Positions 4,367 to 18,140 of a DNA stretch of 18,241 nt are shown one piece after another. The stretch is from the NCBI GenBank assembly GCA_043729555.1, contig JAYTLG010000280.1, forward strand, positions 1 through 18,241, in the 5' to 3' direction. The stretch comes from Cytophaga sp. GTDB lineage: Bacteria > Bacteroidota > Bacteroidia > Cytophagales > Cytophagaceae. Every line of letters starts with the position of its first letter. The first letter of the stretch is position 1. The notes under the pieces were generated by a model. It had not been told where the DNA came from. It did no database searches and saw nothing but the letters and a program-made list of their open reading frames with translations. A program made the translations under genes and the position numbers.

Positions 4367-6271
4367 TTACTTCTTGCCCTCACTTTTCTTAGGATCCATC
4401 ATCTCCATTAACTTCAACCCTAATAAGCCATCCATCGCAGTTCCATTACTGTTGGTACCTCCAATTAAAACATCAGGTATTAATTTAATGTGTCCTTTCG
4501 CAAGCTCCTCCGTGATTTTATACCTCGTAAAGTTTTCACCTCCTAGGGCACTTACAGCAAGTTCGTATGCTTCCGCTGTAGATTTACCGATTGCAAGTAT
4601 TTTGCCTGCTTCAGCACTACCCGTTAACGATATTTGTTCTGCTTGCGCAGATGCTTTTAATTTAATCGCTTCAGATTCTGCTTGAGCCCTTGCTTTCGTA
4701 GCTTCTGCTTCTGCAAACGCACGTAATTTCGTGGCTTCCGCCTCTGCACCTACGGCTAGCTTCACTCCTGTAGCATCACCTTCCGCTTTCTTTACGGTTG
4801 CATTTGCAGTTCGCTCCGCTATCTCTACACTTTGTTGAGCTTTCACAATATCCTTTTGCATATCTGCAATGGCCGTTTCCTTCTCCATTCCTTGGCGGGT
4901 TTCTTGCGCTTTTTTCTGCGTGTCGTAGGTTACTTTTTGTTCTTCTGCAATTTTACGATCTGTCAACGTTTTCATCAACGATTCTGGAGGTACGATGTCG
5001 CCTATCAAAGTATCAACGGCATTCACATTGTATTCATCCAAAACTTTTTTGATGTGCTCCTTCGCTGATTCTTGTCTTTCTTTTCTCGTACTTAGGAATG
5101 CAATCACATCACTGTCTTGCGCAGAGTTACGAAAATAATTTCCGATGGTAGGTTCCAATACTTGCGACACTAAGTTTACCATATTCCCAAATCGCGCAAT
5201 CACTTTCGGAGCCTCAGTGGTAGGAACATGTATGATTTGAGCAACGTCTAAGTTGAAAGGGAAACCATCTTTTGAACGTACCGTAATGGTTGAAAGATTC
5301 TTATCAAGGTTGTGCGCTTCACTGCGAGCAGAAGCCCAATTGAGTACAAGGTTAGTGGTTGGCACGAGTTCAACTTTCATAATGTATTTATTGACAGGAT
5401 ACTTACCAGGTCCTAAAGGCTGCAGCCAAACCCCTTTGAATCCTTTTTCAACGATGTTGCCATGTTTGAAATCAATACCTGTAAGGTCACTTCCTTCTTG
5501 GCCTATGTATGAAATTACAACACCAACATAACCGATAGAAATTTCCGTCATTGGAATTTCTTCAATTTGTACCGCCCAATAATTTAAGTTGTATGAACCA
5601 GCAAGAATTACCTGAGGCTGCAGTCCACGATTACCTCCATTAGCGATGAATTTATCGAAATCTTGAAAATTGTTATGGTCTTCTACTAATTTACCTGCGA
5701 TCTGCCCAGCTTCAATAGGCATACCATCTAAGGTAGTTACTATGCCTACCATGCTTTCTTGAATACGAATCATGTCCGTTACAGAAACTTGAAACAACAT
5801 GGTGTTGATTCTGTAAGAACCCGCTGTGATGTATGTTGCTTGTCTTCCTCTTTGTCCTCCACCTAATAAAAATTTTGTTGCATCTTGAAAGTTGTCACAT
5901 TCCACTCGCAGTCCTAGAATGTTTCCTGTTGGAATTTCACTTCCGTCTTTCGCCATAATTAAACCGATTTTACCTTCTGGAATAATGGTAAAACTTTCCA
6001 TGGTGACATCAAATTGCCATACCCATTTCCAGAAATACAATCCTGGAGCCAGTGTTCTAGATTGAAAACCCGCTTCACCATTGGTTGCGATAATACGTCC
6101 ATCTTGCAATTCTTTATTTGCTCCAAACAAAACAAACTGTTTCGTAACCAGTCCAACTTTATCTTCTGGAACAATAACAACACCGAAGAAAAAACGAAGT
6201 ATGTATTTATATAAAATAATACCGATGATTACGATTGCGATCCAACCGTAACTTAAAAGCACATGTCCCAT
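4367..6271 (-). CDS. Flotillin-family (SPFH/band-7, YqiK-like) membrane protein, 634 aa
   Basis: N-terminal TM segment WIAIVIIGIILYKYIL, SPFH-type core, and a C-terminal Ala/Glu-rich repeat region (AEAEATKLRAFAEAEATKARAQAESEAIKLKASAQAEQ) typical of bacterial flotillins. Stop codon is TAA. Confidence 0.8.
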   Translation of the reverse strand: MGHVLLSYGWIAIVIIGIILYKYILRFFFGVVIVPEDKVGLVTKQFVLFGANKELQDGRIIATNGEAGFQSRTLAPGLYFWKWVWQFDVTMESFTIIPEGKIGLIMAKDGSEIPTGNILGLRVECDNFQDATKFLLGGGQRGRQATYITAGSYRINTMLFQVSVTDMIRIQESMVGIVTTLDGMPIEAGQIAGKLVEDHNNFQDFDKFIANGGNRGLQPQVILAGSYNLNYWAVQIEEIPMTEISIGYVGVVISYIGQEGSDLTGIDFKHGNIVEKGFKGVWLQPLGPGKYPVNKYIMKVELVPTTNLVLNWASARSEAHNLDKNLSTITVRSKDGFPFNLDVAQIIHVPTTEAPKVIARFGNMVNLVSQVLEPTIGNYFRNSAQDSDVIAFLSTRKERQESAKEHIKKVLDEYNVNAVDTLIGDIVPPESLMKTLTDRKIAEEQKVTYDTQKKAQETRQGMEKETAIADMQKDIVKAQQSVEIAERTANATVKKAEGDATGVKLAVGAEAEATKLRAFAEAEATKARAQAESEAIKLKASAQAEQISLTGSAEAGKILAIGKSTAEAYELAVSALGGENFTRYKITEELAKGHIKLIPDVLIGGTNSNGTAMDGLLGLKLMEMMDPKKSEGKK

Positions 6272-6982: not shown

Positions 6983-7013
6983 TGTTCAAGAATATTTTTC
7001 GCTGACGTGTTGC

Positions 7014-7232
7014 TTAAACTTCAAATAGCACATTGCCTGGTGCCTGTCTGGTAATGTCTTTCAAGTCGGCGGCCGATTTAATGCCAGCATTCCTTATGAC
7101 AAGCTTTGCCCCAGATGCCTTGGCTTGACGCGCCATGTCCTTCAGGTCTGCGGTAGATTTAATGGTTGCATCGATACTGATTCCGCCACCCAGTCTAATA
7201 ATTTCTTTTAAGTCAGTTGTTGATCTGCTCAT
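7014..7232 (-). CDS. Small hypothetical protein with three degenerate internal repeats, 72 aa
   Basis: Repeats STTDLKEIIRLGGGISIDATIK, STADLKDMARQAKASGAKLVIRNAGIK and SAADLKDITRQAPGNVLFEV share the motif S-(T/A)-x-DLK-(D/E)-(I/M)-x-R. The fold was not recognised. Starts 32 bp downstream of the hydrolase gene. Confidence 0.55.
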   Translation of the reverse strand: MSRSTTDLKEIIRLGGGISIDATIKSTADLKDMARQAKASGAKLVIRNAGIKSAADLKDITRQAPGNVLFEV

Positions 7233-7378
7233 GTTAAACGTGTTTTTTTGAAAAATTTCTGTCCACTATAAAAATAATAAAAGTATTAGAAATTACTACA
7301 CAAAAACTACGCAAGCGTAAGGTACTTTCTATCGCTGGCGAAAGTTTAGAGATAGAATTATGCTCCATTTAAACAAGG

Positions 7379-12610: not shown

Positions 12611-13303
12611 CTAATGATCGTGTTTCTGCAAGCTAACTTTTGTCCTAAACCCTCCACCATCAACAAAATCCTTAAACTTTTTATTCGACAGATGGAGTGC
12701 CGGAGCAAATATTGGTTTCCATACATCGCTAGAATCTATAAATTTATTCCTATCCTGTTCGTTGGTGATATTTATAGAATAAGAATTTGCACTCACATGC
12801 TCAAATTGAAAAATCTCCCAGTTATTTTTATCGATAAAATGATTTAAATAATATTTTCCATTCGACTGAATTAATTTGTCTTTCTTATGCAAGTTCATGA
12901 TGGTGTCTTGAGTGCTTTCTTTGAATATGAGATAACCATCTTGTATAATTTTTATTTCATTTTTATGCCTTTCAACGACCTGTGCTGTATCGAATTTAGA
13001 CAGTTGATAATACGTTGAAAATTCTAGTGAGTAAAATGCTAGCTGATCCGTAATGGTTAACATTCCCGAAAAGATCATGACCGAATCTTGTAGCATGATA
13101 AAATCCTTTGAGTAGTATTTTGAATTATAAAATATTTCTTTATTTCTTGACCCGATTGTGCTGTCAGCACTATAATACATCCCTACTAATTCAGCGGTAA
13201 AGTGCTGTAGCTTTATGCCATCCTTGGGCATAGGCCTGTCAAAGTTTATACCCGAACAGCTTGCCAACAAAATGCAACATAATATCAAATGTATTTTTTT
13301 CAT
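12611..13303 (-). CDS. Lipoprotein, function unknown, 230 aa
   Basis: Signal peptide with lipobox MKKIHLILCCILLASCSG (Cys after L-A-S). Stop codon is TAG. It is 257 bp upstream of, and co-directional with, the CheB/CheR hybrid gene. Confidence 0.65.
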   Translation of the reverse strand: MKKIHLILCCILLASCSGINFDRPMPKDGIKLQHFTAELVGMYYSADSTIGSRNKEIFYNSKYYSKDFIMLQDSVMIFSGMLTITDQLAFYSLEFSTYYQLSKFDTAQVVERHKNEIKIIQDGYLIFKESTQDTIMNLHKKDKLIQSNGKYYLNHFIDKNNWEIFQFEHVSANSYSINITNEQDRNKFIDSSDVWKPIFAPALHLSNKKFKDFVDGGGFRTKVSLQKHDH

Positions 13304-13460
13304 CTTACTATACTCTTGCAGGCGAAAGCTTTTAGCTTGTGCCTTTTATTTTTAGAGCGTATCGCTCGGTGTTTATTGTGTTATAGTATGTTCGAGCTAT
13401 AAGCTCTATATCCCGAAGTCTCGGGATAGACAAAAGATACTCTTGCGCCAACAGATCTGA

Positions 13461-13664
13461 CGCGGATGTTACGAAGGATCATCCGTGACATACACTAAAA
13501 CTAATATTAACAATATCGACTTTAGGGATCTGCGATCCCTACCTCAATTTAAATATAAAAATAAAACACCATTATCAATGTATGGATTGCAAATCCATAT
13601 GCACATTGCTACACTTTATTACTTTGTGGTAAATGGCACGGATGATCCTGCGGAACATCCGCGC
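13461..13664. repeat. Mirror-symmetric array of four GGAT/ATCC-cored palindromic sites bounded by a 27-bp inverted repeat
   Basis: IR-L cgcggatgttacgaaggatcatccgtg (13461-13487) versus IR-R cacggatgatcctgcggaacatccgcg (13638-13664): 25 of 27 match when reverse-complemented. Internal perfect 19-bp palindromes tagggatc-tgc-gatcccta (13523-13541) and tatggatt-gca-aatccata (13581-13599). Site centres at 13474, 13532, 13590 and 13651 (spacings 58, 58, 61 bp), symmetric about roughly 13562. Confidence 0.6.
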
Positions 13665-13688
13665 CATTTGTGTAATTATTTATTATTT

Positions 13689-14870
13689 CTAATTTCCATT
13701 TTCAAACATTGGCAACTCAATCGTAAATATTGTTCCTTTGTCTTTACCTTCACTATTTACTTTTACGTTTCCTCCGTGCCTTTCTGCAATTTCTTTGGCA
13801 ATCCATAAACCAAGTCCCGTAGACACTTCATTGCCTGTCGGTTTAGCACTTAACTTACTAAACTGCTTAAAAGCATTATTCATATCCTCAATCGTCATTC
13901 CTTGCCCATTATCTTTTACTTCTAAAATTACTTTTTCTCCTTTTTTCTCTAAAAGGACAGTAATGTCTTTGCCGCTTGGCGAATACTTAATAGCATTACT
14001 TAAAAAATTATCTATCAATTCTGACAACCTTGTTTTATCTCCATGAACAAGTATATTCGTCTCTACTGAACTTTCTATTTTCTGCTGTTTTTTTGATGCT
14101 ATTACCTTATTAGTTGATATTACTCTGTTAGTAAGCTCGGAAAGATCAAAAGACTCAAATCTATAAGGAATATCTTTTGACGAATTTACAGCATGCCTTA
14201 AAAAACTATCTACTGCCTGTATGCTTTTATCTGCGAAAGATTTTATCATATCCCCCATTTCTTCTACCTCATCAGGATTTCCTTTTTGCTCTTTTATTAA
14301 ATCTACTAAATAAGGGATGTTGCAAACTGCACTACGGACATCGTGAGTTATCATATAAGCCATTTTATTTTGTGAATTTATTGCCGAACGAGCCATTAGA
14401 CGCAATTCTAACTGCTCAATCACAACATAGGCTAAATCTTCTAATATCTGTTGTTCCGTATTATTTAGGGTTCTTGGCTTTTTGTCAAGAACGCAAAGCG
14501 TCCCCAAGTTGAAACCGTCAGAGGTTGTTAAAGGAACTGCTGCATAAAATCTTAATCCAAATTCACTTGTTACTAATGAATTTCTAAGTGTTCTGGGGTC
14601 TTTTAAAGCATTTTCTACCATTTAAAAATCCTTAGAAAAAATAGCTGATGCACATAGCCCTTCTTCTCTTGGTATTTGCTGAACATTCAAGCCAAATGCT
14701 GACTTAAACCAAATTCTATCAGTATCTACTAAAGAAACAATAGCAATTGGTACGTTTAATAACTTTGCTACTAATTTTACTATACGGTCGTATGTTCCAT
14801 CTGGTGGAGTATCCAAGATCTCAAACTTCCTTAGTGTTTCTAATCTTTTTATCTCTGTTTCTGTTGTCAT
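13689..14870 (-). pseudogene. GAF-sensor histidine kinase interrupted by one in-frame TAA (ORFs 14622..14870 and 13689..14621 share a frame)
   Basis: The 82-aa upstream ORF is the N-terminal half of a GAF domain (LETLRKFEILDTPPDGTYDRIVKLVAKLLNVPIAIVSLVDTDRIWFKS). The 310-aa ORF continues it (ENALKDPR...GLRFYAAVPL) into a HisKA-like H-box (ITHDVRSAV) and HATPase_c (DNGQGM, GLGLWIAKEIA). TAA at 14624..14622 is followed directly by ATG 14621..14619 (TAAATG). Confidence 0.7.
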
Positions 14871-14888: not shown

Positions 14889-15000
14889 CTAACGGATAGC
14901 GTGTTGTAGACGGTGCAGGAGTTAAAGCTCTTCACTGCACGCTAGTACCGAGGGGAGCCATGGGCTTATCTTTGCGTAGCCAAGCCCATGGCGATTAATG
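14889..15000 (+). repeat. Copy 1 of a ~115-bp repeat family (5' box ctaacggatagcg, 3' hairpin gccatgggctt...aagcccatggc, tail gcgatta)
   Basis: Aligns with the copies at 17023 and 17987. Hairpin 14957-14992 has an 11-bp stem. Sits 19 bp upstream of the GAF-kinase ATG at 14870, directly adjacent to the left inverted repeat of the transposase unit. Confidence 0.7.
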
Positions 15001-15010
15001 GCTCCCCACT

Positions 15011-15729
15011 GGCGCGAGCATCCTGCTCGTGCCCAAAGCACATAGAGCGTCCCGCTCGGGCATCCTATAACATTGCAAGACAAGAAGCCACTTTTGCCCT
15101 GCATGATCTCTTGCGCTACTGTATAGCCATTCTTCTGGCTACAATACAAATCCTGACGTTACAGGATTCATGTGAATATAATTCATTTTTTGATAAAACA
15201 CCTCATCACTAAATAACTCTATGGGATGATTGTGTTGTTCCCAAAATTGAAAGTCTTTTGTATTTGAATTATGTTTTCCGGCATGTCTCATCAACCACAA
15301 CAACCATCTTTTTCTACTTTCTTACGTATTGCTTTCTGCTTCCAGCATCGTATGAAAAACACGAGAGATATAACCTTTTAAATTTCTTATAGTTTCACCT
15401 AAATTGTCAGGTGCTGCTGAACGCAAGATCAAATGAATGTGACTGGTCATGATACAGTACGCATAAACTTCCAGTCCATTGTTTTGCTGGTAATGTTTTA
15501 TGGCATTAAAAAAGACTTCTTTGTATTCGTTTCGAATAAAAAAATCGATCCAATCGATAACAATGAAGGTGACAAAGTGGGCATGACGATCTGCTCCGAA
15601 GCGATATTTTCTACTCATAAAAAATAATTTAAAAAATGTTCTTCAAATATAATGAATGGCATTGTCTTATTCAAGTATCCCCGCGCGGGACGCTCTATAT
15701 ACTTGTGGCACGAGCAGGATGCTCGCGCC
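15011..15729 (-). mobile_element. RAYT/IS200-like Y1 transposase unit flanked by 50-bp GC-rich inverted repeats (REP-like)
   Basis: Left IR 15011-15060 (ggcgcgagcatcctgctcgtgcccaaagcacatagagcgtcccgctcggg) and right IR 15680-15729 are 45 of 50 identical when reverse-complemented. Each IR contains two GC-rich imperfect hairpins (ggcgcgagca-tcc-tgctcgtgcc; cccg-ct-cggg). They enclose the transposase gene with 78-bp and 61-bp gaps. Confidence 0.65.
15139..15618 (-). pseudogene. IS200/IS605-family (REP-associated, RAYT-like) Y1 HuH transposase with in-frame TAA at codon 99
   Basis: The 98-aa ORF 15322..15618 carries the HuH motif (CIMTSHIHLIL). Continuing by hand in the same frame past TAA (15324..15322) gives 62 more codons: ESRKRWLLWLMRHAGKHNSNTKDFQFWEQHNHPIELFSDEVFYQKMNYIHMNPVTSGFVL, ending at TAG 15141..15139. 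The catalytic-Tyr motif YIHMNPV resembles the RAYT YIxxNPV context. The full length of 161 aa is typical of Y1 transposases. Confidence 0.7.
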
Positions 15730-15767
15730 AGAAAGGGCTATTTCAATGTCGTTCATCAGCCCTTGTG

Positions 15768-16964
15768 CTAAGTACTTTCGTCAAACATAATTTCGTCTGA
15801 ACTACCCACTTTATATAATGGTTTCTCAATGGGTAATGTAAAATAAAAAGAAGAACCCTCGCCTTCAATACTTTCTACCCATATTTCACCACCATTTTTT
15901 TCTAAAAATCCTTTAACCAATAATAACCCAATTCCAGCACCCTTATCCTTTTTTCTTGCTTCTGAAAGGGCTTTCATTTGTGGTGTAAAAAGTTTAGCCA
16001 TTATTTCTTTCGACATTCCAATTCCAGTGTCCTTAACCTGAATAATAATTTTGTCATCTTTACTTTTTGCTGAAACCGTTACTGCCCCTCCTTTTTCGGT
16101 ATGTTTTATCGCATTTGAAACTATATTTTGTACGATGGAAATTAGCATTTTGCCATCTGCAAATACGGACGTATTTTCTTCGATTTCGTGATGAAGATTT
16201 ATTGTATTTATTGAAGCACTTTCGTTTAATGTTTCGAACACCTTATCAATGTATTCGGTTAACTTAATTTTTGTTGGAGAAAAGGTGTCTGATGCGTATT
16301 TTATTCTTGCCCATTCAACTAAATAATCTAACATATCTAATTCATCAATTGATGATTTATAGAGTAAGTCAAGCATTTCCTGAACAACATCAGGTTTCAT
16401 TTTATGAAAATTTTCTTTCAAATATTTTGCAGTTCCTATGATAGATGATAATGGACTGCGTAAATCGTGTGAAAGTATTGCCATAACACTTTCTTTATGT
16501 GTGTTAAGGTCTTCTAATTCTTTGACATATTTCTTTATAGAATCCTCCGATTGTTTCCTGTATGTTAAGTCCTGTAAAATTTTAACATATCCTATCATCA
16601 CTCCATCTATACTAACGAGTGGAAACACCAACCCAAAAGCATAAAACAAGCTCTTGTCTTTAGCGATATGCCATCTATTATCTGTTGCTCTTCCTTCTTT
16701 TAAAGCTGTTTCAATTTCTTTTTTCGGGACACCATTTTTTAAATCTTCATCCGTAAATATTAAATCGAATGGCACTCCAAGAACTTCGTCCACTTCATAA
16801 CCAAATATCTTTGTCGAACCGGCACTCCAACTATTTATATTAAATTCTTTATCTAATGTAAAAATTGAATAATCCTGCAAACTGTCAATTATTTGGCTAT
16901 AAAATTCAGCTGTCGGAAGATATTTATTTTTAAGAATTTTCGGATTGTCTTGTTTGTTTTCCAT
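15768..16964 (-). CDS. PAS-domain sensor histidine kinase (cytoplasmic), 398 aa
   Basis: N-terminal PAS domain (aa 15-135), H-box AILSHDLRSPLSSI, and HATPase_c with NAIKHT, DTGIGM and GAGIGLLLVKG. No TM segments. Stop codon is TAG. Confidence 0.8.
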   Translation of the reverse strand: MENKQDNPKILKNKYLPTAEFYSQIIDSLQDYSIFTLDKEFNINSWSAGSTKIFGYEVDEVLGVPFDLIFTDEDLKNGVPKKEIETALKEGRATDNRWHIAKDKSLFYAFGLVFPLVSIDGVMIGYVKILQDLTYRKQSEDSIKKYVKELEDLNTHKESVMAILSHDLRSPLSSIIGTAKYLKENFHKMKPDVVQEMLDLLYKSSIDELDMLDYLVEWARIKYASDTFSPTKIKLTEYIDKVFETLNESASINTINLHHEIEENTSVFADGKMLISIVQNIVSNAIKHTEKGGAVTVSAKSKDDKIIIQVKDTGIGMSKEIMAKLFTPQMKALSEARKKDKGAGIGLLLVKGFLEKNGGEIWVESIEGEGSSFYFTLPIEKPLYKVGSSDEIMFDEST

Positions 16965-17022: not shown

Positions 17023-17176
17023 CTAACGGATAGCGTGTTGTGGTCGTTGCAGGTGTTAAAGCTCATCACTTCACTTTAGTAACGAAGTAAGCCATGGGCT
17101 TATCTTTGCGTAGCCAAGCCCATGGCGATTATTGGCTCTGCTGTTTACTCTAGCAGAATACCTGCACTGACAACAA
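17023..17176 (+). repeat. Copy 2 of the repeat family, with extended tail cctgcactgacaacaa
   Basis: 5' box at 17023; hairpin 17091-17126, identical in sequence to the copy-1 hairpin. It fills the spacer between the 52-aa ORF stop (17194) and the PAS-kinase ATG (16964). Confidence 0.7.
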
Positions 17177-17193: not shown

Positions 17194-17352
17194 TTATTCT
17201 TGAATATCACGGGCTCTAATTCTCACAACCTTGCCATCTTTAGAATACACAAGTTCTCCATCAGATTCTCTTTTGCGCTCAATCAATTTACTGACTGCCA
17301 GTTTTACTCCCAATACAATTTTATCTCTTAATTCTTTGTTCTTACTTTCCAT
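17194..17352 (-). CDS. Unannotated small ORF, 52 aa (MESKNKELRDKIVLGVKLAVSKLIERKRESDGELVYSKDGKVVRIRARDIQE), overlapping the stop of the zeta-toxin-like gene
   Basis: Hand-translated; absent from the supplied ORF track. ATG at 17352..17350 lies inside the last codons of the upstream gene (cttactttccat on the plus strand), giving an 11-nt overlap in the +1 frame. TAA at 17196..17194. The basic N-half plus a beta-hairpin-like C-half is a plausible small DNA-binding or antitoxin-like protein. Confidence 0.4.
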   Translation of the reverse strand: MESKNKELRDKIVLGVKLAVSKLIERKRESDGELVYSKDGKVVRIRARDIQE

Positions 17353-17926
17353 AAGCTGCACTGTTTAAAGTTTCCCAAATCTCTTTATCATAAACTTTAT
17401 TTTCTTCATCTCTACCACCTTCTGATATTAAGTTAGAATGATTTGATGAATTATCAAATATCATCCAATAGTCAACAATTGGAATGAATCGTTTGAATAA
17501 GTTTTCAAGTCCAAGTTTATATCTTCTCTCAATTACCTCTGTGGGAATATTATGACCTCCTTCAGCTACTCGATCTTTAACTCTTTCCTTAGCTAAGTCA
17601 ACAGTGTTTAACCAAAAGTAAATCAATGTCACACTATAACCATATTCTTGAGCCTCTTTCACGGTATTAACATAGCTCTTAGAAGACAATGTCGTCTCAA
17701 AAGCAAAATCCGCTTTTGAAGTTAAAAGTTCATCAATTCTTTTAAGCATTATTCTCCCTGATTGAATAGCTACTTTCTCTGGTTGAAAAGGGGAAAGTCC
17801 TTTTGCAATTTCATCTGCATTAATAAACTCTTTGCAATTAAGTATTTCAGGCAGAACGGTGTATGAAGCCGTTGTCTTTCCAGCACCATTACATCCTGCT
17901 ATAATGTATAAATTTGGCATATTCAC
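17342..17926 (-). CDS. Zeta-toxin-family P-loop kinase (AAA/zeta-toxin domain), 194 aa
   Basis: Walker A IIAGCNGAGKTT near the N-terminus, FINADEIAKG (zeta-type Asp box), and C-terminal AEGGHNIPTEVIERRY matching the zeta-toxin GGHxVPxxvIxxRy signature. Stop codon is TAA. Confidence 0.7.
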   Translation of the reverse strand: MNMPNLYIIAGCNGAGKTTASYTVLPEILNCKEFINADEIAKGLSPFQPEKVAIQSGRIMLKRIDELLTSKADFAFETTLSSKSYVNTVKEAQEYGYSVTLIYFWLNTVDLAKERVKDRVAEGGHNIPTEVIERRYKLGLENLFKRFIPIVDYWMIFDNSSNHSNLISEGGRDEENKVYDKEIWETLNSAAYGK

Positions 17927-17986
17927 CTGATTTTAAGCAAATTTAGTCAAAAAATACGATAAATGCTCTGTCGGCTAACATTGCCC

Positions 17987-18140
17987 CTAACGGATAGCGG
18001 CTTGTGGTCGGTGCAAGTGTTAATGCTTTAATGATTACTTTACTATTGAAGTAAGCCAAGGGCTTATTTTTGCGAAGCCAAGCCCTTGGCGATTAATAAC
18101 AATATAGTTTACTTCACTACGAATCCTGCACTGACTACAA
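17987..18140 (+). repeat. Copy 3 of the repeat family (diverged), with tail cctgcactgactacaa
   Basis: 5' box ctaacggatagcg at 17987. Hairpin 18055-18090 is gccaagggctt...aagcccttggc, i.e. t-to-a and a-to-t changes relative to copies 1 and 2 that preserve the base pair. About 60 bp upstream of the zeta-like ATG at 17926. Confidence 0.65.

What the first reader, a model, noticed from the sequence alone, without database searches (positions are those of the whole stretch)
13304..13688. Mirror-symmetric array of GGAT/ATCC palindromes (27-bp inverted repeats plus two perfect 19-bp palindromes) with ~58-61-bp spacing
Four sites share a GGAT-N-ATCC core: aaGGATcATCC (in IR-L), tagGGATCtgcGATCCcta, tatGGATTgcaAATCCata, and acGGATgATCC (in IR-R). 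They are placed symmetrically about position ~13562 at 58/58/61-bp intervals. Each outer 27-bp repeat can also fold on itself (cggatg...catccg). Further palindromes lie just upstream (atcccga-agtc-tcgggat at ~13411; gagcg-tat-cgctc at ~13358). The region sits between the GAF-kinase stop and the lipoprotein/CheBR operon start. This density and symmetry is not explained by a simple terminator. Candidates are a multi-operator regulatory region for a dimeric GGAT-recognising regulator, a small structured RNA, or a MITE-like element.
Basis: seen in the sequence. Interest (0 to 1): 0.6.

Follow-up and report, generated by a model that had tools for sequence, protein, structure and literature searches.

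The report
REP-like hairpin repeats (REPIN) in Bacteroidota
The symmetric palindrome array is two facing copies of a conserved two-hairpin repeat, a REPIN-like miniature mobile element of the kind associated with REP-associated tyrosine transposases (RAYTs) in Bacteroidota; it is a well-resolved example of a known class, not a gene-specific operator array.

Summary
The four "GGAT" sites are not four equivalent operators. They are two inverted copies of one ~92-nt module: hairpin 1 (GGCGCGGATG-TTCCGCAGGAT-CATCCGTGCC), a ~30-nt A-rich spacer, then hairpin 2 (TATGGATYTGYRATCCATA). The copies lie at 13456-13546(+) and 13576-13668(-).

The same module occurs in at least 8 Bacteroidota MAGs and several metagenome contigs, in unrelated intergenic contexts. 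It almost always forms the same convergent doublet of ~200-235 bp. One arm always carries a "GGGATC" hairpin 2 and the other an "ATGGAT" hairpin 2 (13 of 13 doublets). Both hairpins show compensatory changes. No target-site duplication was found.

In all five loci that carry a related 184-188-aa RAYT gene (NCBIfam REP_Tyr_transpos; subclass 2.6 / group 5), modules lie within about 110 nt of that gene (55-58 nt in four of them). The window holds a decayed RAYT (15079-15618, two in-frame stops). It is bracketed by a second module type, and that type recurs at 13317-13373, inside the finding.

The whole intergenic region is therefore a cluster of REP/REPIN-like elements. This is a new member of a known kind, of modest interest.

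The parts
13451..13672 (.). Type-1 REPIN-like doublet, the whole unit (~220 bp): two convergent two-hairpin modules plus a central AT-rich spacer.
   Evidence: It is 91% identical over 219 nt to L015 6235-6453, in an unrelated gene context. It aligns end to end with 12 other doublets.
13456..13546 (+). Module A (arm with the 'G-type' hairpin 2).
   Evidence: Covariance model R1 scores it 84.5 bits, E=7e-17.
13458..13490 (+).
   Evidence: ssDNA fold; pair counts on 31 copies.
13523..13541 (+). Hairpin 2 of module A, TAGGGATC-TGC-GATCCCTA (G-type).
13547..13575 (.). Central AT-rich spacer of the doublet.
   Evidence: Conserved with L015. It differs between doublet subfamilies.
13576..13668 (-). 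Module B (arm with the 'T-type' hairpin 2).
   Evidence: Covariance model R1 scores it 93.0 bits, E=9e-19.
13581..13599 (-). Hairpin 2 of module B, TATGGATT-TGC-AATCCATA (T-type).
13632..13668 (-). Hairpin 1 of module B: AATGGCGCGGATG/CATCCGTGCCATT, a 13-bp lower stem including a G.T wobble, an inner 3-bp stem and a GCA loop.
   Evidence: ssDNA fold at -23.3 kcal/mol for the module.
13317..13373 (+). Type-2 module: hairpin 1 GGCGAAAGCT-TTT-AGCTTGTGCC (13320-13344), a 10-nt spacer, then hairpin 2 GAGCG-TAT-CGCTC (13355-13367).
   Evidence: Model R2 was built only from the RAYT-flanking modules of the window and of L003. It hits here at 32.1 bits, E=3.6e-8. ssDNA fold.
13388..13452 (-). Possible decayed partner arm of the type-2 module. 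It holds GAGCT-ATA-AGCTC (13394-13406), ATCCCGA-AGTC-TCGGGAT (13411-13428) and GGCGCAAGAG...CTTTTGTC.
   Evidence: By-eye alignment. Model R2 gives only 9.7 bits, E=0.59, so this is inconclusive.
15079..15618 (-). RAYT (REP-associated tyrosine transposase) pseudogene with in-frame TAA (15322-15324) and TAG (15139-15141).
   Evidence: Pfam Y1_Tnp. NCBIfam NF047646 at 84 bits against a cut-off of 80. Frame translation. 39% identical to the L011 RAYT.
15007..15063 (+). Type-2 module flanking the 3' end of the RAYT: CTGGCGCGAGCA-TCC-TGCTCGTGCC ... GAGCG-TCC-CGCTC.
15677..15733 (-). Type-2 module flanking the 5' end of the RAYT, an inverted copy (90% identity over 52 nt).
13689..14621 (-). Upstream neighbour: GAF(partial)-HATPase kinase ORF. 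The gene appears split from its N-terminal 82-aa ORF by an in-frame TAA.
12611..13303 (-). Downstream neighbour: a 230-aa ORF with a lipoprotein-like N-terminus (called as 206 aa in public assemblies) and no family match.

Best explanation
The intergenic region is a cluster of REP/REPIN-type repeats. These are non-coding, hairpin-forming, non-autonomous elements that belong to a REP-associated tyrosine transposase (RAYT, HUH/Y1 family) system of Bacteroidota (TnpA-Y1 subclass 2.6 = RAYT group 5).

The mirror-symmetric array (13451-13672) is one REPIN-like doublet. It consists of two ~92-nt modules in convergent orientation, each with hairpin 1 on the outside and hairpin 2 on the inside. The two arms carry different hairpin-2 subtypes, as in the Y/Z pairs of E. 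coli BIMEs. The left part of the gap (13317-13373, perhaps to 13452) is a second, related module type. That type also brackets the decayed RAYT gene 1.6 kb away.

Inferred mechanism, from what is established for TnpA-REP and IS200/IS605:
- A cognate RAYT recognises hairpin 1 on single-stranded DNA, for example at the replication fork. Recognition would involve the conserved 5' foot CTGG and the conserved G.T mismatch near the stem base.
- The RAYT then cuts and rejoins, so that the doublet is copied or moved into intergenic DNA without a target-site duplication.
- Any effect on the flanking kinase and lipoprotein/CheBR genes (transcript-end hairpins, attenuation or mRNA stabilisation) would be a by-product, not the reason the array exists.

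Shown here: the repeat family, its structure and covariation, the doublet architecture, dispersal in unrelated contexts, linkage to RAYT genes and the lack of TSDs.
Not shown, only inferred: binding, cleavage, mobility and any effect on transcription.
For: 1. The exact 24-mer of hairpin 1 occurs on 11 contigs of 8 Bacteroidota MAGs and on 6 metagenome contigs. In most of them it is followed ~30 nt later by the same hairpin 2.
2. Model R1 finds 31 strong modules (56-102 bits). They pair up as 13 convergent doublets of 198-237 bp, like the one in the window.
3. Structure on the 31 modules: 96.8% of cells are paired against 26-47% when partners are slid. Seven pairs show compensatory change, and 0 of 500 shuffles reach the observed value. 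One pair of hairpin 2 is GC in 14 copies and UA in 14.
4. Every one of the 13 doublets has one G-type arm and one T-type arm.
5. A G.T wobble near the stem base is present in 19 of 31 copies. The top strand folds better than the bottom strand in 4 of 4 modules tested.
6. 27 of 31 modules overlap no ORF of 150 aa or more, in loci that are ~70-75% coding by that measure.
7. The whole doublet is 91% identical to one in L015, whose genes are otherwise unrelated.
8. No TSD exceeds chance in any of the 13 doublets.
9. All five loci with a related RAYT gene (L002, L003, L008, L011, L020) have modules within about 110 nt of it. The distance from the start codon is 55-58 nt in four of them and about 110 nt in L008.
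10. These proteins pass NCBIfam 'REP-associated tyrosine transposase' at 108.8 bits against a cut-off of 80. They carry NHVH, WQ, YIHxNP and SS motifs with HuH-to-Y spacing of about 85 aa. This is the signature of the Bacteroidetes-specific subclass 2.6, whose genes are described as flanked by atypical secondary structures with copies elsewhere in the genome.
11. Table S1 of that paper lists near-identical hairpins: Spirosoma GCTGGCGCGAGCATATGCTCGTGCC; Pedobacter saltans ...CATGTTCCGCAGGGCATG...; Flavobacterium johnsoniae and Bacteroides xylanisolvens GGATT-TGC/GCA-AATCC.
12. The window's own RAYT pseudogene is bracketed by inverted type-2 modules. A model built only from RAYT-flanking type-2 modules hits 13317-13373 at E=3.6e-8.
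Against: - Copy number could not be measured in the source genome. Only this 18-kb contig and near-identical contigs are available.
- In the MAGs the exact 24-mer occurs only 1-3 times per genome, and the pieces that could be read hold up to about 8 modules per MAG. This is far below the hundreds typical of Pseudomonas or E. coli REPINs.
- The cognate RAYT for the type-1 hairpin is not in the window. The local RAYT is dead and is flanked by type-2 modules.
- No empty-site comparison was possible.
- The canonical GT[AG]G foot is absent.
- No biochemical or transcript data exist.
- The partner arm of the type-2 module is not statistically supported (E=0.59).
Confidence: 0.85

Rival explanations
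1. Multi-operator regulatory region. A dimeric regulator would recognise GGAT-N-ATCC and bind four symmetric sites to control the lipoprotein/CheBR operon or the kinase.
For: The sites are palindromic and symmetric. The array lies upstream of the 230-aa gene and the CheBR gene. The intergenic region is 100% conserved in three other assemblies, but these are the same strain and so carry no information.
Against: - The same array occurs beside unrelated genes in many genomes.
- The outer and inner sites are different hairpin kinds.
- Compensatory changes preserve pairing rather than a fixed sequence.
- A conserved G.T wobble and a systematic strand asymmetry have no meaning in duplex DNA.
- The modules are linked to RAYT genes.
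Confidence: 0.03
2. A structured small RNA or cis-regulatory RNA (leader, terminator or stabiliser) selected for an RNA-level function.
For: Both strands fold strongly (z about -7.8). The hairpins covary. REP elements in other bacteria are known to affect termination and mRNA stability (background in PMC3733652). A weak terminator-like hit lies at 13649-13663.
Against: - No Rfam family matches, even at E up to 10.
- The doublets are two-fold symmetric and sit in co-directional and convergent gene gaps alike.
- There is no consistent U-tract.
- RAYT linkage and the lack of any conserved gene partner argue that an RNA role is secondary at best.
- This reading is not mutually exclusive with the best explanation.
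Confidence: 0.07
3. A conventional MITE: a deletion derivative of a DDE-transposase IS, with terminal inverted repeats, mobilised in trans.
For: It is ~220 bp with long inverted arms, intergenic and multi-copy across genomes.
Against: - No target-site duplication in 13 of 13 copies.
- No DDE transposase is linked to the copies.
- The arms are made of conserved local hairpins, with a heterotypic arm pair in 13 of 13 doublets.
- The linked gene in five of five loci that carry one is a Y1/HUH RAYT.
Confidence: 0.05

Closest known systems
REPIN-RAYT systems (REP doublets forming hairpins; Bertels & Rainey 2011, PMC3116915; RAREFAN preprint 10.1101/2022.05.22.493013)
   Same: Inverted doublets of hairpin-forming REP units. 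They are extragenic, dispersed and non-coding. They cluster around a Y1/HUH RAYT gene. The doublet, including its spacer, is conserved as a unit, and no TSD is present.
   Different: - The foot is CTGG, not GT[AG]G.
- Each arm is ~92 nt with two hairpins, so the doublet is ~215 bp rather than ~100 bp.
- Only a few copies per genome could be seen here, against tens to hundreds.
- The RAYT belongs to subclass 2.6 / group 5, not group 2 or 3.
E. coli BIMEs / REPtron with TnpA-REP (PDB 4ER8; described in PMC6006769 and the references it cites)
   Same: Two different REP subtypes are paired in inverted orientation (Y/Z in E. coli; G-type/T-type hairpin 2 here). The RAYT gene is bracketed by such repeats. 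The REP stem carries a mismatch.
   Different: Sequence, foot and RAYT subclass differ (2.2 in E. coli). It is not known whether host factors (IHF, gyrase) bind here.
'Atypical secondary structures' flanking subclass 2.6 TnpA-Y1 genes of Bacteroidetes (Quentin et al. 2018, PMC6006769, Table S1)
   Same: - The RAYT signature matches: NH[LIV]H, WQ, YIHxNP, SS, about 180 aa, long HuH-to-Y spacing.
- Near-identical hairpins are listed: Spirosoma linguale GCTGGCGCGAGCATATGCTCGTGCC; Flexibacter litoralis CTGGCGCAAGGT...; Pedobacter saltans ...CATGTTCCGCAGGGCATG...; F. johnsoniae, B. xylanisolvens and Runella GGATT/GGGATT...AATCC(C).
- Copies are reported elsewhere in the genome.
   Different: - That work lists single hairpins found by manual inspection next to the genes.
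- The exact type-1 hairpin (GCGGATGTTCCGCAGGATCATCCG) is not in its tables or in any searchable paper.
- The two-hairpin module, the heterotypic convergent doublet and its conservation as a unit across genomes are resolved here.
IS200/IS605 insertion sequences and their hairpin-bearing MITE derivatives
   Same: Y1/HUH enzyme family, recognition of imperfect hairpins on one DNA strand, and no TSD.
   Different: As recalled, IS ends are two hairpins on the same strand flanking tnpA/tnpB. Here the hairpin modules are inverted, enclose no gene, and the linked enzyme scores as a RAYT (108.8 bits) rather than IS200 TnpA (29.8 bits against a cut-off of 55).

Membership tests
REP/REPIN-RAYT system | Short repeat unit that forms a hairpin, with pairing maintained across copies | tested here: met
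   31 modules are 96.8% paired. Seven pairs show compensatory change, and 0 of 500 shuffles reach this. ssDNA folds have z from -3.4 to -5.4.
REP/REPIN-RAYT system | Two units in inverted orientation forming a doublet that is conserved as a unit | tested here: met
   13 convergent doublets of 198-237 bp. The window doublet is 91% identical to the L015 doublet, spacer included.
REP/REPIN-RAYT system | Extragenic, and dispersed at several places in a genome | tested here: met
   27 of 31 modules are outside ORFs of 150 aa or more. Several contigs per MAG carry them: bin.142 (L002, L014), RYN_299 (L003, L005), RYN_301 (L004, L013); sample Ga0247813 (L016, L018, L020). Copy number looks low, and the source genome itself could not be counted.
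REP/REPIN-RAYT system | A cognate RAYT gene flanked by the same repeats (REPtron) | tested here: met
   This holds in L002, L003, L008, L011 and L020 for type-1 modules, and in the window for type-2 modules around the RAYT pseudogene. The cognate RAYT for type-1 is not within the window.
REP/REPIN-RAYT system | RAYT protein with HUH and catalytic Tyr motifs that passes a curated RAYT model | tested here: met
   NF047646 scores 108.8 bits (L011) and 84 bits (window pseudogene) against a cut-off of 80. Motifs NHVH/SHIH and YIHxNP are present. A weak match to 4ER8 TnpA-REP has E=0.003.
REP/REPIN-RAYT system | Conserved 5' GT[AG]G tetranucleotide at the hairpin foot (canonical REPs) | tested here: not met
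   The foot is CTGG. This agrees with subclass 2.6, which is reported to lack GT[AG]G.
REP/REPIN-RAYT system | High copy number (tens to hundreds per genome) | tested here: inconclusive
   Only 1-3 exact 24-mers per MAG, and up to about 8 modules per MAG in the pieces that could be read. MAGs are incomplete and tend to break at repeats. The source genome is not available.
REP/REPIN-RAYT system | RAYT binds and cleaves the hairpin on single-stranded DNA; the element is mobile | not testable with these tools
   Only indirect evidence: the same doublet in unrelated contexts and strand-asymmetric pairing.
TnpA-Y1 subclass 2.6 / RAYT group 5 (Bacteroidetes) | NH[LIV]H, WQ, YIH[QN]NP and SS motifs; about 179 aa; HuH-to-Y distance about 82 aa | tested here: met
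   L011 RAYT: 184 aa, NHVH at residues 59-62, FWQ, Y145 in YIHRNP (R in place of Q/N), YSSAGDY; HuH-to-Y distance about 85 aa (one search compared). Compared by eye with the published table, not with the authors' HMMs.
TIR-type MITE (DDE transposase derived) | Target-site duplication flanking the element | tested here: not met
   The longest shared flank word is no better than shuffles in 13 of 13 doublets.
Operator array for a specific regulator | Conserved association with one regulon or neighbouring gene across genomes | tested here: not met
   Flanking ORFs differ in every locus.
Described RNA family (Rfam 15) | Match to a curated covariance model | tested here: not met
   No hit at gathering score over the window. 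Only chance-level hits appear at E up to 10 in 13200-13800. No tRNA or tmRNA was found.

The most novel reading that the evidence does not exclude
The Bacteroidota element may be a distinct REPIN architecture: a bipartite arm (a RAYT-recognition hairpin plus a second, exchangeable hairpin) that always pairs heterotypically (G-type with T-type). In this reading the second hairpin and A-rich spacer have been co-opted for a host function, such as a bidirectional transcript-end or insulator element or a host-protein binding site. That would explain why hairpin 1 stays 24/24 identical while the linked RAYTs diverge to 52% identity, and why copy numbers stay low.
Probability: 0.2. Interest if true: 0.45.

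Novelty: new member of a known kind. Interest (0 to 1): 0.3.

Why it matters
For annotation, the result removes a false lead. This is not a bespoke regulatory switch for the CheBR operon. It marks the whole 385-nt gap, and the RAYT locus 1.6 kb away, as REP/RAYT territory.

For the REPIN field, it gives a concrete, alignable family (covariance models R1 and R2, 31+ copies) for the poorly characterised Bacteroidetes subclass 2.6 / group 5 RAYTs. Their repeats were previously described only as 'atypical secondary structures' found by eye. The family makes three things directly testable with oligonucleotides: the CTGG foot, the conserved G.T mismatch, and the obligate pairing of two hairpin-2 subtypes.

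Tried and rejected
- Rfam at gathering score over the whole window and at E up to 10 over 13200-13800 gave nothing meaningful. There are no tRNA or tmRNA genes.
- The promoter/terminator scan gave only weak terminator-like matches at 13649-13663 and 13355-13367, on the strand opposite to the genes.
- The viral contig scan for the 24-mer found none.
- An empty-site comparison was not possible. The 230-aa protein has no homologue other than itself among 5.8 billion proteins. The contigs that carry it are the same strain, with an identical intergenic region, and their differences sit only at contig ends.
- BLAST-short did not link 13317-13373 to the RAYT-flanking modules. The link was established with a covariance model.
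- The TSD search was negative.
- Two GC-rich hits of the 24-mer (Myxococcota L006, Actinomycetes L009) match only the 24-nt core and lie inside long ORFs, so they were set aside as coding-sequence coincidences.
- Stop-codon reassignment was considered for the in-frame stops and rejected, because the stops are of two kinds (TAA and TAG).
- A literature search for the exact hairpin sequence found no paper.
- The 10-nt direct repeat ATACTCTTGC (13310-13319 and 13437-13446) was considered as a TSD. It is more simply part of the decayed type-2 arm, or chance.
Full report
**1. The observation**

The 385-nt gap at 13304-13688 lies between two minus-strand genes. One is a GAF(partial)/HATPase kinase ORF (13689-14621). 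The other is a 230-aa ORF with no family match (12611-13303), followed by a 1527-aa CheB-CheR-PAS-HisKA-HATPase-REC protein.

- The 27-nt inverted repeat sits at 13461-13487(+) and 13637-13663(-). The copies are 25/27 identical, and no shuffle gave a match.
- The two 19-nt palindromes sit at 13523-13541 and 13581-13599. They are the only GGATYNNNRATCC matches in 18 kb.
- The two GGATNATCC sites are present.
- The upstream palindromes sit at 13355-13367 and 13411-13428.
- The region folds much better than shuffles on both strands (z -7.85 and -7.70).

Only the quoted spacings are off. Centre-to-centre distances are 52/58/54 nt, not 58/58/61. The symmetry centre of ~13561.5 is correct.

**2. What the array is made of**

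A scan of one genome per bacterial species for GCGGATGTTNCGNAGGATCATCCG returned 13 loci. Eleven are contigs of 8 Bacteroidota MAGs, labelled Cytophagaceae, Chitinophagaceae, Sphingobacteriales, Flavipsychrobacter or 'Bacteroidetes'. The other two (Myxococcota, Actinomycetes) match only the 24-nt core and lie inside long ORFs, so they are coding coincidences.

In most Bacteroidota loci the hairpin is followed, after ~30 A-rich nucleotides, by TATGGATCTGTGATCCATA or a compensated variant. The unit is therefore a ~92-nt module:
- a CTGG foot;
- hairpin 1, GGCGCGGATG / CATCCGYGCC, with an inner TCC-GCA-GGA stem-loop;
- an A-rich spacer;
- hairpin 2.

The window holds one module on each strand, at 13456-13546(+) and 13576-13668(-). 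This is why four 'sites' appear mirror-symmetric. They are not equivalents of the inner palindromes.

A minority of loci (L007, L008, L010, L012, L019) combine the same hairpin 1 with a different hairpin 2 (GCCGGT...ACCGG).

**3. Architecture and structure across copies**

A covariance model of the module (R1) finds 31 strong copies (56-102 bits) in the window, the MAG loci and six metagenome contigs.

- They are organised as 13 convergent doublets of 198-237 bp, with hairpin 1 outside and hairpin 2 inside, exactly as in the window.
- On the 31 copies, 96.8% of cells are paired, against 26-47% when partners are slid.
- Seven pairs show changes on both sides, and no shuffle reaches the observed values. 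One pair of hairpin 2 is GC in 14 copies and UA in 14.
- That split has a simple cause. In every one of the 13 doublets, one arm carries a GGGATC...GATCCC hairpin 2 and the other an ATGGAT(C/T)...ATCCAT hairpin 2. This recalls the Y/Z REP pairs of E. coli BIMEs.
- A G.T wobble near the base of hairpin 1 is kept in 19 of 31 copies. It would be an A.C mismatch on the other strand.
- As single-stranded DNA, the 'top' strand folds better than the bottom strand in all four window modules tested.

Pairing conserved through compensation, together with strand asymmetry, points to a single-stranded hairpin as the functional form rather than a duplex operator.

**4. Dispersal and boundaries**

- 27 of 31 modules overlap no ORF of 150 aa or more, in loci that are ~70-75% covered by such ORFs.
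- Neighbouring genes differ from locus to locus.
- The most telling case is L015, from a 424-kb metagenome contig. The whole window doublet, central spacer included, is 91% identical over 219 nt. Apart from one small gene, nothing else in the 11.6 kb is related to the window, even at protein level. This fixes the unit at about 13451-13672 and shows that the doublet, not the single hairpin, is what is propagated.
- Doublet subfamilies with their own spacers exist.
- No target-site duplication exceeds chance in any of the 13 doublets.
- Similarity ends a few nucleotides outside ...(A/C)CCTGG and CCAG(A/G)T...

**5. Link to a transposase**

In L002, L003, L008, L011 and L020, a 184-188-aa gene lies next to the modules. 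The distance from its start codon is 55-58 nt in four loci and about 110 nt in L008. In L003, L008 and L020 a further module abuts its 3' end.

- These proteins pass NCBIfam NF047646 'REP-associated tyrosine transposase' at 108.8 bits against a cut-off of 80. They fail the IS200 transposase model (29.8 bits against 55).
- They match Pfam Y1_Tnp and, weakly, the solved ISDra2 TnpA and E. coli TnpA-REP structures.
- Their motifs are NHVH, WQ, YIHRNP and YSS, with an HuH-to-Y distance of about 85 aa and a length of about 184 aa. This is the signature of TnpA-Y1 subclass 2.6 (= RAYT group 5) of Quentin et al. 2018.
- That subclass is Bacteroidetes-specific. [quoted passage not shown]
- Bertels et al. 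2017 report that 16-mers flanking group 5 RAYTs occur about 31 times per replicon.
- Table S1 of Quentin et al. lists hairpins that are plainly the same kinds: Spirosoma linguale GCTGGCGCGAGCATATGCTCGTGCC; Flexibacter litoralis CTGGCGCAAGGT-TCT-ACCTTGTGC; Pedobacter saltans ...GACATGTTCCGCAGGGCATGTC...; F. johnsoniae, B. xylanisolvens and Runella GGATT/GGGATT-NNN-AATCC(C).
- The exact type-1 hairpin is not in those tables or in any searchable paper.

**6. The rest of the region, and the window's own RAYT**

The window contains a RAYT homologue at 15079-15618(-). It is 39% identical to the L011 type and scores 84 bits on NF047646. It has in-frame TAA and TAG stops, so it is a pseudogene.

It is bracketed by inverted copies (90% identical over 52 nt) of a second, shorter two-hairpin module: CTGG-CGCGAGCA-TCC-TGCTCGTG-CC, a 10-nt spacer, then GAGCG-TCC-CGCTC. 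This 'type-2' module shares the foot and stem base with type 1 (CTGG, GGCGCG/CGTGCC, including the G.T wobble). It also occurs next to the RAYT genes of L003 and L020.

A model built only from the four RAYT-flanking copies (R2) hits window 13317-13373(+) at 32.1 bits, E=3.6e-8.

The stretch 13388-13452(-) looks like its decayed partner (GGCGCAAGAG..., GAGCT-TAT-AGCTC, with an extra hairpin ATCCCGA...TCGGGAT). This is not statistically supported (9.7 bits, E=0.59).

The whole 385-nt gap is therefore essentially filled by REP-type modules.

**7. Mechanism**

Shown here: the family, the structure, the doublet, the dispersal, the linkage to RAYT genes and the absence of TSDs.

Inferred from established knowledge of TnpA-REP and IS200/IS605 (summarised in PMC6006769):
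- The cognate RAYT recognises hairpin 1, its 5' foot and its mismatch on single-stranded DNA.
- It cleaves and religates through a 5'-phosphotyrosine intermediate.
- It thereby copies or moves the doublet.

Hairpin 1 stays 24/24 identical while the linked RAYTs diverge to 52% identity (L008 against L011). Hairpin 2 is exchangeable. This suggests hairpin 1 is the recognition element and hairpin 2 an accessory of unknown role.

In this window the elements may be fossils. The local RAYT is dead, and the type-1 RAYT is not on the contig.

Effects on the kinase 3' end or the lipoprotein/CheBR 5' region are possible but untested. The hairpins are not followed by a U-tract on the transcribed strand.

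**8. Rivals**

- An operator array is contradicted by dispersal, covariation and strand asymmetry.
- An RNA-level role cannot be excluded, but it has no positive support (no Rfam match, no fixed orientation).
- A DDE-type MITE is contradicted by the absence of TSDs and by the RAYT linkage.

**9. Verdict**

It is a new member of a known kind. The RAYT subclass and the general nature of its flanking hairpins are published. What is added here is the specific type-1 family, the two-hairpin module, the obligate heterotypic doublet and its conservation as a unit.

Interest is modest (0.3). The main limits are that no copy count was possible in the source genome, no empty site was found, and there are no experimental data.

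Noticed in passing
window 14889-15004, 17023-17138, 17979-18095 (all + strand): A third repeat family of ~116 nt is present in three direct copies (89% and 82% identical). It contains a long hairpin GCCATGGGCTT...AAGCCCATGGC. Each copy lies 18-58 nt upstream of the start codon of a minus-strand gene: the 82-aa GAF N-terminal ORF, the PAS histidine kinase 15768-16964 and the zeta-toxin-like gene 17342-17926. It has no Rfam match and was not found in loci L002-L020. It could be another REP-like/MITE repeat or a shared 5' leader or promoter module.
   Followed up: partly
window 15079-15618 (-): The RAYT homologue carries two in-frame stops: TAA at 15322-15324, where relatives have Arg, and TAG at 15139-15141, where relatives have Glu. 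It is otherwise colinear with intact 184-aa relatives.
   Followed up: yes
window 14619-14624: The GAF-kinase gene appears split. The 82-aa ORF (14622-14870) ends in TAA and is immediately followed by the ATG of the 310-aa ORF. The Pfam GAF match in the 310-aa ORF starts at profile position 68, so the first half of the domain is in the upstream ORF. This is probably a nonsense mutation, and gene decay in this neighbourhood.
   Followed up: partly
window 7010-7233 (-) and L015 6538-6756 (+): A small ORF of about 72-74 aa (MSKSTNDLKEILRLGGGISIDAAIK..., with an internal LKD(M/I)ARQA repeat) is 82% identical at nucleotide level between the window and L015. It is the only other shared sequence between them. 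In L015 it sits 35 nt from the REPIN-like doublet; in the window it is 6 kb away.
   Followed up: no
L008 3231-5316: Two ORFs with nearly identical N-termini (MISIQQLQEEFVQHFGTAATEIFFS... of 383 aa and MINIQQLQEEFVQHYGTSATETFFS... of 236 aa) lie in tandem, with type-B REP modules at 4447-4516 and 5262-5322 next to them. This could be a partial gene duplication associated with the repeats.
   Followed up: no
L003 1909-2001 (+): A variant of hairpin 1 that is a perfect 11-bp palindrome (GCGGATGTTCC-TTCG-GGAACATCCG). It looks as if the 5' arm of type 1 were paired with its own reverse complement. It abuts the stop codon of the RAYT gene and follows a type-2 module.
   Followed up: no
L006 7579-7602; L009 7751-7774: The exact 24-mer GCGGATGTTGCGCAGGATCATCCG also occurs inside long ORFs of GC-rich Myxococcota and Actinomycetes MAGs, without the rest of the module. 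Two such hits are more than random expectation for 22 fixed bases, so a conserved peptide motif may underlie them.
   Followed up: partly
window 13310-13319 and 13437-13446: A perfect 10-nt direct repeat, ATACTCTTGC, brackets the type-2 module region. It is either chance or part of the decayed inverted arm.
   Followed up: partly
L001 (Logan contig SRR23617305_117450): An independent assembly of the same strain breaks at window position 13362, inside the type-2 module. Short-read assemblies tend to break at sequence that is repeated in the genome.
   Followed up: no
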